A DNA stretch of 64,000 nucleotides from Patescibacteria group bacterium (lineage in GTDB: Bacteria > Patescibacteriota > Microgenomatia > 0-14-0-10-38-17): contig JBMNNJ010000002.1 of assembly GCA_050953885.1 (NCBI GenBank), positions 41,586-105,585 on the forward strand, in the 5' to 3' direction. Each line of letters begins with the position of its first letter. Position 1 is the first letter of the stretch. The notes beneath the pieces were generated by a model, which did no database searches, was not told the origin of the DNA, and saw nothing but the letters and a program-made list of their open reading frames with translations. A program made the translations under genes and the position numbers. This document shows, piece after piece, positions 5,767-5,842 of the stretch.

Positions 5767-5842
5767 TGTAGGGGCGGACCCATGTGTCCGCCCGTCAAGA
5801 GGTCCGTACCTTAATCGGGTCGACACATGGGTCGACCCCTAC
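5767..5842. repeat. REP/REPIN-like doublet: two GTAG-headed GC-rich hairpins in inverted orientation
   Basis: tGTAGGGGCGGACccatgtGTCCGCCCgtcaa...GGGTCGACacatggGTCGACCCCTACg. The outer arms tgtagggg/cccctaca pair, and each half is GTAG plus a hairpin. Confidence 0.6.

What the first reader, a model, noticed from the sequence alone, without database searches (positions are those of the whole stretch)
5767..5842. REP/REPIN-like GTAG-headed hairpin doublets whose sequences differ but whose structure is conserved
At 5767-5842 and 39901-39973 a GC-rich unit has the form tGTAGGGGCG-[palindrome]-CGCCCGTCAA-spacer-[palindrome]-CCCCTACa. Each half is GTAG followed by a hairpin, which is the defining layout of REP sequences bound by RAYT (IS200-like Y1) transposases. 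The two halves are inverted, so the whole unit is a REPIN. The stems differ between copies (GCGGAC/GTCCGC and GGTCGAC/GTCGACC versus GCGATTCA/TGAATCGC and GGGCGCATC/GATGCGCCC) yet stay perfectly complementary. That is compensatory change, meaning the structure rather than the sequence is under selection. REPINs are essentially unreported outside Proteobacteria, so this would be new for a CPR-like genome.
Basis: partly seen in the sequence, partly recalled or inferred. Interest (0 to 1): 0.75.

Follow-up and report, generated by a model that had tools for sequence, protein, structure and literature searches.

The report
GTAG-headed REP hairpin doublets (REPINs)
The two GC-rich hairpin doublets are real and belong to a known, widespread class of small bacterial repeats (REP/REPIN elements served by a RAYT enzyme), so finding them in a probable CPR genome only modestly extends the class's known host range.

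Summary
Window 5768-5842 and 39902-39972 each hold two inverted GTAG-GGG…CCC hairpins, separated by a 23-nt spacer, in intergenic DNA. The pattern gives 2 matches against 0 in shuffles.

These are GTAG-tagged REP units arranged as head-out inverted dimers, which is the REPIN layout.

- **Spread:** the same design occurs in more than 120 genome loci across many phyla and in more than 120 viral contigs.
- **Covariation:** the inner stem covaries strongly (97.6% paired, all four Watson-Crick pair types, almost no G-U).
- **RAYT link:** dense clusters of the same units flank RAYT (Y1 HUH transposase) genes in two genomes. Distant CPR-like relatives carry a RAYT flanked by a sister "double-foot" REP right after RNase J.
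- **Match to literature:** the three-G-C-pair foot, the double-foot variants and the in-frame REP insertions in the RAYT gene all match published TnpA-REP subclass 2.4.

Three points need correcting. The minimum-energy fold is one long hairpin, not a three-way junction. GTAG REPs and RAYTs are already reported outside Proteobacteria. No RAYT was found in the window or in the neighbouring DNA of the same species that could be fetched.

Verdict: a new member of a known kind, of modest interest.

The parts
5768..5842 (.). REPIN copy 1: inverted doublet of two GTAG-headed REP hairpins with the GTAG ends outward. It lies between two surface-protein-like genes inserted in the S10 operon.
   Evidence: The MFE is a long hairpin of -51.6 kcal/mol (RNA parameters).
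5768..5793 (+). REP unit 1a: GTAG + GGGCGGAC-ccatgt-GTCCGCCC
   Evidence: CM R1 scores 27.8 bits, E 7e-07. The same unit occurs in L073.
5794..5816 (.). Spacer of copy 1 (23 nt), with its own small 5-bp hairpin.
5817..5842 (-). REP unit 1b: GTAG + GGGTCGAC-ccatgt-GTCGACCC (read on the - strand)
39902..39972 (.). REPIN copy 2: inverted doublet in the UDG-RNase J spacer, ending 25 nt upstream of the RNase J start codon.
   Evidence: It is present in L121-L126 and absent from the same spacer in L127, L129, L130 and L132.
39902..39925 (+). REP unit 2a: GTAG + GGGCGATTCA/TGAATCGCCC
   Evidence: CM R1 scores 25.3 bits. The identical hairpin occurs in L052.
39926..39948 (.). Spacer of copy 2 (23 nt). 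It is unrelated to the copy 1 spacer except for the first five bases, GTCAA.
39949..39972 (-). REP unit 2b: GTAG + GGGCGCATC-ac-GATGCGCCC (read on the - strand)
   Evidence: CM R1 scores 25.6 bits.
7180..7203 (-). Possible decayed REP unit, GCCG-GGGTGATT-cgcc-AATCGCCC. The head is mutated and the stem has one G-T pair. It lies inside the 5' end of the 427-aa ORF.
   Evidence: The hairpin matches unit 2a at 16 of 20 positions (my count from the sequences). It is not significant with CM R1.

Best explanation
Both sites are REPINs. Each is a pair of inverted REP units of the GTAG-tagged type. A unit is GTAG, then a hairpin whose foot is three G-C pairs, with a freely varying but complementary upper stem; the whole unit is 23-26 nt.

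They belong to the REP family served by RAYT/TnpA-REP enzymes of subclass 2.4 (Bertels group 4). The inferred mechanism comes from the E. coli enzyme. On single-stranded DNA each unit folds into a hairpin. A Y1 HUH nuclease recognises the GTAG tetranucleotide plus the hairpin foot, then cuts and rejoins. The doublet is therefore copied or moved in trans as a non-autonomous element.

**Shown here:** the anatomy, the covariation, the wide distribution, and the RAYT genes embedded in clusters of the same units in other genomes.

**Inferred:** that this genome has, or once had, a cognate RAYT, and that the enzyme acts as the E. coli one does.

A secondary consequence is that the units are transcribed inside operons and may stabilise or shape the mRNA.
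For: 1. **Anatomy.** Four units have a GTAG head and perfect 8-10 bp stems, arranged as two head-out inverted dimers with 23-nt spacers, all intergenic.
2. **Same genome, just outside the window.** Two single units sit in the S3-L16 and L36-S13 spacers. They differ from each other by one compensated base pair and share a 3' tail, CAACAATTTAA.
3. **Family.** The doublet pattern hits more than 120 loci in genome contigs across many phyla, and more than 120 viral contigs. In 273 units, 75% have at least 3 complementary pairs beyond the pattern-fixed foot, against a chance expectation of about 1.6%.
4. **Covariation.** In 52 distinct 23-nt units, 97.6% of cells are paired. The covariation score is 0.436 against 0.092 in shuffles (0/500 reach it) and at most 0.111 for slid registers. 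All four Watson-Crick types occur and G-U pairs are only 3 of 156 variable cells, which points to a DNA-level constraint.
5. **RAYT link.** In L023 a RAYT (NF047646 80.4 bits, PF01797 33.9 bits) is flanked by 8 units in 8 kb. In L036 a RAYT has 12 units in 7.6 kb, one of them in frame inside the gene. In CPR-like relatives (L167, L175, L148, L138, L152, L202) a RAYT directly downstream of RNase J is flanked by 28-nt GTAGAGACG…CGTCTCTAC palindromes.
[quoted passage not shown] Head-out 'HH' dimers 20-100 bp apart, and sub-families with alternative complementary stem residues, are described in PMC3733652.
7. **Site polymorphism.** Copy 2 is absent from the same UDG-RNase J spacer in L127 (95% identical RNase J) and in relatives at 63-66% identity. 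Flank similarity with L127 ends exactly at the left GTAG.
Against: - No RAYT homologue was found in the 64-kb window, or in the 7 near-identical strain loci L206-L212 (88 kb in all, part of it overlapping the window). This used hmmsearch --max at E<=50 on all ORFs of at least 40 aa.
- Copy number is low in what could be seen. There are 6 units in about 74 kb, whereas classic REP families number in the hundreds.
- The two doublets share little beyond the head, the foot and GTCAA, so recent replication within this genome is not demonstrated.
- No clean empty site or target-site signature was recovered.
- RAYT activity is demonstrated biochemically only for the E. coli subclass 2.2 enzyme (literature).
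- Stem complementarity could in part be maintained by template-switch repair rather than by selection.
Confidence: 0.8

Rival explanations
1. Orphan or relic REPs whose present role is at the RNA level. Being transcribed inside operons, the hairpins would act as 3' stabilisers or processing barriers, for example setting differential expression within the ribosomal-protein operons or upstream of RNase J, with no active transposase left.
For: - No RAYT was found in the surveyed DNA.
- Units sit in operon-internal spacers: S3-L16, L36-S13, and 25 nt upstream of the RNase J start.
- Very stable RNA folds.
- REP-bearing genomes without tnpA-REP are discussed in PMC6006769.
- E. coli REPs are known to affect mRNA stability (literature cited).
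Against: - Pairing is almost purely Watson-Crick, with 3 G-U among 156 variable cells.
- Units occur in both orientations relative to transcription.
- The conserved unpaired GTAG head has no obvious RNA role.
- This reading concerns current function, not origin, so it is compatible with the main explanation.
Confidence: 0.25
2. Rho-independent (bidirectional) transcription terminators.
For: GC-rich stems in intergenic DNA. Copy 1 lies between a gene end and a strong sigma-70-like promoter at 5757-5728 on the - strand.
Against: - No T-tract follows any of the four stems, and the terminator scan does not call them.
- Copy 2 and the two single units lie inside operons, just before downstream start codons.
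- A conserved GTAG head, and the same design across many phyla next to RAYT genes, is not expected of terminators.
Confidence: 0.05
3. A MITE derived from a DDE-type insertion sequence, with GTAGGGGCG/CGCCCCTAC as terminal inverted repeats.
For: The overall shape is a 71-75 bp unit bounded by 9-nt inverted ends.
Against: - No target-site duplication flanks either copy.
- Single half-units exist on their own.
- Each arm is itself a covarying hairpin.
- The only transposase found embedded in clusters of these units is a Y1 RAYT.
- The IS in the window (rve family, 44680-45855) is unrelated in position.
Confidence: 0.04
4. Palindromic operator sites for a dimeric DNA-binding regulator.
For: Perfect palindromes just upstream of genes.
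Against: The inner half-site sequence varies freely while complementarity is kept, which is the opposite of what base-specific protein recognition predicts. Neighbouring genes are unrelated housekeeping genes with no enriched family.
Confidence: 0.02

Closest known systems
REPs of TnpA-REP/RAYT subclass 2.4 (Bertels group 4), 'canonical long' and 'double foot' types (Quentin et al. 2018, PMC6006769)
   Same: A GT[AG]G head at the foot of the hairpin, with the foot made of three consecutive G-C pairs. Double-foot variants (GTAG…CTAC) occur in the relatives. RAYTs have NHxH / WQ / YIxNNP motifs. REP units are inserted in frame between HUH and Y (L036, L167). The taxonomic spread is scattered and multi-phylum.
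   Different: The host here is CPR-like, a group not named in that survey. No cognate RAYT was seen in the DNA available for this genome, and the apparent copy number is low.
GTAG-tagged REP superfamily, 'HH dimers' (Di Nocera et al. 2013, PMC3733652)
   Same: An unpaired GTAG tag, 6-13 bp stems and short loops. Dimers have GTAG termini outward and 20-100 bp apart. Sub-families differ by complementary stem changes.
   Different: That survey found them in Proteobacteria, Cyanobacteria, Chloroflexi and PVC. Whether the exact GTAGGGGCG…CGCCC consensus is among its 24 families could not be checked, because the consensus sequences are in a figure.
REPIN-RAYT systems of Pseudomonas and E. coli (Bertels & Rainey 2011; Ton-Hoang 2012; Messing 2012)
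   Same: Two inverted REPs form one long hairpin, which is the MFE here. The elements are non-autonomous and intergenic, and are served in trans by a single-copy Y1 HUH enzyme.
   Different: Those families have hundreds of near-identical copies per genome and belong to RAYT groups 2 and 3. Here the copies are few and mutually divergent, and the enzyme class is group 4.
IS200/IS605 subterminal hairpins
   Same: Hairpins recognised on ssDNA by a Y1 HUH transposase, with a short guide or cleavage motif next to the hairpin foot.
   Different: IS200/IS605 ends flank a transposase gene in direct orientation, are not inverted doublets, and carry no GTAG tag.

Membership tests
GTAG-tagged REP / REPIN | GT[AG]G tetranucleotide immediately 5' of a GC-rich hairpin 20-40 nt long | tested here: met
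   4 of 4 units in the window and 2 of 2 outside it
GTAG-tagged REP / REPIN | Extragenic location | tested here: met
   Both doublets and both single units lie in intergenic spacers
GTAG-tagged REP / REPIN | Two REPs in inverted orientation with a short spacer, able to form one long hairpin (the REPIN definition) | tested here: met
   Spacers are 23 nt. The MFE is the long hairpin for both copies, on both strands, with RNA and DNA parameters.
GTAG-tagged REP / REPIN | Many copies dispersed in the same genome | tested here: inconclusive
   6 units in about 74 kb. Other hosts reach 12-18 units per 8-14 kb.
GTAG-tagged REP / REPIN | Copies within a genome related by descent (replicative families) | tested here: inconclusive
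   The two single units are near-identical, including a 3' tail. The two doublets share only the head, the foot and GTCAA.
REP-RAYT system (REPtron) | A cognate RAYT (Y1 HUH) gene in the same genome, typically flanked by the REPs | tested here: not met
   None in the window or in the 7 strain loci L206-L212. This covers only a fraction of the genome. The feature is met for the family elsewhere: L023, L036 and CPR-like relatives such as L167.
TnpA-REP subclass 2.4 REP type | Hairpin foot of three consecutive G-C pairs, or a double foot; REP insertions in frame within the RAYT gene | tested here: met
   A GGG…CCC foot in all units. Double foot in L138, L167, L171 and others. In-frame insertions in L167 and L036. 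Definition taken from PMC6006769.
REP-RAYT system (REPtron) | Cleavage and rejoining of the REP on ssDNA by the RAYT | not testable with these tools
   Needs biochemistry. Shown only for E. coli TnpA-REP in the literature.
Rfam RNA families | A match to a curated covariance model | tested here: not met
   Nothing at gathering threshold, and only chance-level hits at E<=10

The most novel reading that the evidence does not exclude
Ultra-small CPR genomes would keep a domesticated RAYT-REP system. In one clade the RAYT sits at a fixed locus between RNase J and ProRS. In the window's lineage REP units persist in ribosomal-protein operon spacers and in front of RNase J with no RAYT in any DNA that could be fetched. 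On this reading the units have been co-opted as functional DNA/RNA elements. The same GTAG-GGG design on many viral contigs would point to phage-borne spread across phyla.
Probability: 0.2. Interest if true: 0.5.

Novelty: new member of a known kind. Interest (0 to 1): 0.3.

Why it matters
The finding places a known class of selfish or domesticated repeat, REP/REPIN with RAYT subclass 2.4, in a probable CPR (Patescibacteria-like) lineage. The paper library searched held no report of this.

RAYT-bearing genomes are reported to be larger than average (PMC6006769). A RAYT-REP system in genomes under 1 Mb is therefore mildly unexpected. It would offer a compact setting to ask why hosts retain RAYTs.

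It does not reveal a new mechanism. The anatomy, the dimer arrangement, the compensatory stems and even REP insertion inside the RAYT gene are all already described.

Tried and rejected
- **Rfam.** Searches at gathering and at permissive thresholds found nothing relevant.
- **Literature search by sequence string.** It returned only unrelated primer or promoter hits.
- **Neighbour-gene enrichment.** Around 120 genome hits no family was shared by more than 10 loci. Neighbours are housekeeping genes, so the element is not a gene-specific cis-regulator.
- **RAYT near the window.** Walking outward with the look-up of encoding contigs gave about 10 kb on one side plus strain variants on the other, with no RAYT. 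The rest of the 120,874-bp source contig could not be reached.
- **Clean empty site.** The UDG-RNase J spacer of the 95%-identity relative L127 is remodelled with other repeats. Only the left boundary is defined.
- **GTAGAGACG after the RNase J stop (38184-38192).** I considered it as a relic of the relatives' double-foot REP. It has no palindrome and 9/100 shuffles give a match, so it is treated as unproven.
- **Covariance model R1.** It found no further diverged copies in the window.
- **Terminator, MITE and operator readings.** All rejected, as set out under the rival explanations.

Full report
**1. Observation**

The two units are at 5768-5842 (75 nt) and 39902-39972 (71 nt). Each reads GTAGGGG-hairpin-CCCG, then a 23-nt spacer, then GGG-hairpin-CCCCTAC. 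The four local stems are perfect, at 8-10 bp. The doublet pattern occurs twice in the window and never in 100 dinucleotide-preserving shuffles.

A scan for GTAG followed by a perfect hairpin finds only these four strong units; shuffles give about 2.7 weak ones. A covariance model built from the family finds no further copy in the window. One possible decayed unit, with the head mutated to GCCG and one G-T pair, lies at 7180-7203 inside the 5' end of an ORF.

**2. Folding**

On both strands, and with both RNA and DNA parameters, the minimum-energy structure is one long imperfect hairpin pairing the left half with the right half (z from -4.3 to -8.4). This is the literal meaning of REPIN, a REP doublet forming a hairpin.

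Two separate local hairpins are 2.6-7.6 kcal/mol less stable with DNA parameters. The local stems are nevertheless perfect while the inter-arm pairing has mismatches. This indicates that each single unit is the conserved object.

**3. Context**

Genes run mostly on the minus strand.

- **Copy 2** lies between a uracil-DNA glycosylase gene and the RNase J gene, ending 25 nt before the RNase J start codon.
- **Copy 1** lies between two genes with no Pfam hit. One (427 aa) has a weak hit to the CPR Pam pilin C-domain. The other (384 aa) has a signal peptide and a C-terminal membrane anchor. Both genes are themselves inserted between rpsJ and rplC.
- A strong sigma-70-like promoter follows copy 1 on the minus strand.
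- No stem is followed by a T-tract, and the terminator scan does not call any of them.

The organism is probably CPR:
- no L30 gene lies between S5 and L15 (the hallmark is from my own knowledge of Brown et al. 2015);
- there is a weak hit to an NCBIfam model named for CPR;
- relatives sit on contigs of 0.7-0.95 Mb.

**4. More copies in the same genome**

The source is JGI contig Ga0534105_01174 (120,874 bp). A near-identical strain contig (L206) extends about 9.5 kb beyond window position 1. It carries two single units:
- GTAGGGGCGTATTGCATACGCCC in the S3-L16 spacer;
- GTAGGGGCGGATTGCATCCGCCC between L36 and S13.

They differ by one compensated base pair and share a 3' tail, CAACAATTTAA, which also resembles the sequence after unit 2a. 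That makes 6 units in about 74 kb.

**5. The family elsewhere**

The hits include Chloroflexota, Acidobacteriota, Bacillota (Oscillospiraceae), Bacteroidota, Planctomycetota, Verrucomicrobiota, Actinomycetota, several proteobacterial classes and a Parcubacteria genome. The same pattern hit more than 120 IMG/VR viral contigs, which hold 423 units in 1.09 Mb.

GC-rich genomes could give many chance matches to the fixed letters. The part the pattern did not fix is the test. In 273 units the interior is self-complementary for at least 3 pairs in 205 (75%), against about 1.6% by chance, and unit length is confined to 23-26 nt.

On 52 distinct 23-nt units:
- the three free stem positions are paired in 146 of 156 cells;
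- all four Watson-Crick types are used, with only 3 G-U pairs;
- the covariation score is 0.436, against 0.092 for shuffles (0/500 reach it) and at most 0.111 for slid registers.

The near absence of G-U argues for a constraint that both DNA strands must satisfy, rather than an RNA-only one. Identical hairpins recur in distant taxa. Unit 1a occurs in a Coxiellaceae MAG (L073) and unit 2a in an Oscillospiraceae MAG (L052).

**6. No link to neighbouring genes, but a link to RAYT**

All-against-all clustering of ORFs around the 120 hits found no family in more than 10 loci. Those checked are housekeeping genes.

In relatives fetched through RNase J, a 234-aa ORF lies immediately downstream of RNase J in L167. 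It has HUH (NHLH), WQ and YIKNNP motifs. It is flanked on both sides by the 28-nt palindrome GTAGAGACGCATCATGATGCGTCTCTAC and carries a REP doublet in frame after the HUH motif. It matches Pfam Y1_Tnp and NCBIfam REP_Tyr_transpos.

A profile search of every fetched locus found homologues in L175, L148, L138, L152 and L202, all in CPR-like relatives. It also found homologues in two loci of the GTAGGGGCG family:
- **L023:** the RAYT scores 80.4 bits on NF047646, with 8 units in 8 kb flanking it.
- **L036:** 12 units in 7.6 kb, one of them in frame after the HUH motif.

The window has no hit even at E<=50, and neither do the strain loci L206-L212.

**7. Comparison with what is known**

Quentin et al. 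2018 (PMC6006769) describe TnpA-REP subclass 2.4 (Bertels group 4) as follows:
- motifs NH[IFV]H, WQ and YIxNNP;
- abundant in Cyanobacteria and Bacteroidetes and scattered across other phyla;
- 'double foot' REPs with GT[AG]G at one end and its complement at the other;
- uniquely, REPs inserted in frame within the tnpA-REP gene, between HUH and Y.

Every item was seen here. Di Nocera et al. 2013 (PMC3733652) describe GTAG-tagged REPs in Proteobacteria, Cyanobacteria, Chloroflexi and PVC. They note that the preferred arrangement is a dimer with GTAG termini outward and 20-100 bp apart, and that sub-families differ by complementary stem residues.

The layout, the doublet and the compensatory stems are therefore established features of a known class. 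The paper library held nothing on REPs or RAYTs in CPR/Patescibacteria.

**8. Mobility at the orthologous site**

The UDG-RNase J spacer is short and lacks the element in relatives at 63-66% RNase J identity (L129, L130, L132). L126 (98%) has the identical REPIN. L127 (95%) keeps the UDG-RNase J synteny but has a 394-nt spacer filled with other repeats. Its similarity to the window stops exactly at the left GTAG.

This shows gain, loss or replacement at the site. It is not a clean empty site, and no target duplication is visible.

**9. Verdict**

Three points need correcting:
- the fold is a long hairpin, not a three-way junction;
- such elements are not confined to Proteobacteria;
- a RAYT in this genome remains to be shown.

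The mechanism (ssDNA hairpin recognition and cleavage by a Y1 HUH enzyme) is inferred from the E. coli system. An RNA-level side role inside operons is possible and untested. This is a new member of a known kind and its interest is modest.

Noticed in passing
window 4321-4336, 27941-27958, 32178-32193; hairpins at 7468-7488, 7588-7608, 32207-32227, 4269-4288, 32247-32266: A second intergenic repeat family. It combines the 16-nt perfect palindrome TCCGCCAGCTGGCGGA with nearby AT-rich hairpins ATTCTGAA-tcaag-TTCAGAAT and ATYCTGAY-gaaa-RTCAGRAT. The same motifs fill the UDG-RNase J spacer of relative L127.
   Followed up: no
window about 5893-5925, 39975-40012, 38150-38190; L149 about 1950-2030: Short AT-rich tandem repeats lie beside both REPINs: TTTGAATTTT x3 and ACGCGAATGG-type repeats. 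L149 has ACACGAATTGAACGAAATAA x3.
   Followed up: no
window 4596-5750 (-) and 5936-7219 (-): Two surface-protein-like genes are inserted between rpsJ (7745-8053) and rplC (3303-3953), an unusual interruption of the S10 operon. The 427-aa gene has a weak hit to NCBIfam CPR_Pam_pilin_C (23.8 bits, below cutoff). The 384-aa gene has a signal peptide and a C-terminal TM segment.
   Followed up: partly
L167 11790-12494; L036 6552-7064: RAYT genes carry REP units in frame just after the HUH motif, encoding VETPRRASL…KETPRRASLH in L167 and GRLIIAPT in L036. This is the published hallmark of TnpA-REP subclass 2.4.
   Followed up: yes
L167, L175, L148, L138, L152, L202 (downstream of RNase J): In a clade of CPR-like relatives (RNase J about 44% identical) the RAYT sits directly downstream of RNase J; in L167 the next gene is ProRS. 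It is flanked by 28-nt GTAGAGACG-N10-CGTCTCTAC palindromes whose central 10 nt vary but stay palindromic.
   Followed up: partly
window 38184-38192 (-): GTAGAGACG, the head of the relatives' double-foot REP, lies 3 nt after the RNase J stop, the same place as in the relatives. It has no palindrome here, and 9/100 shuffles give a match. It may be a relic or chance.
   Followed up: partly
L213-L332 (IMG/VR viral contigs): The same REPIN pattern is common on contigs classed as viral, up to 18 units in 14 kb, with no RAYT in those stretches. Whether these are phage DNA or host flanks of proviruses was not checked.
   Followed up: no
L206 15681-16596; window 44680-45855 (+); L207, L208: No L30 gene lies between S5 and L15, a CPR hallmark. 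An rve-family IS sits next to rpsO. Strain contigs L207 and L208 show rearrangements within the spc operon region.
   Followed up: no
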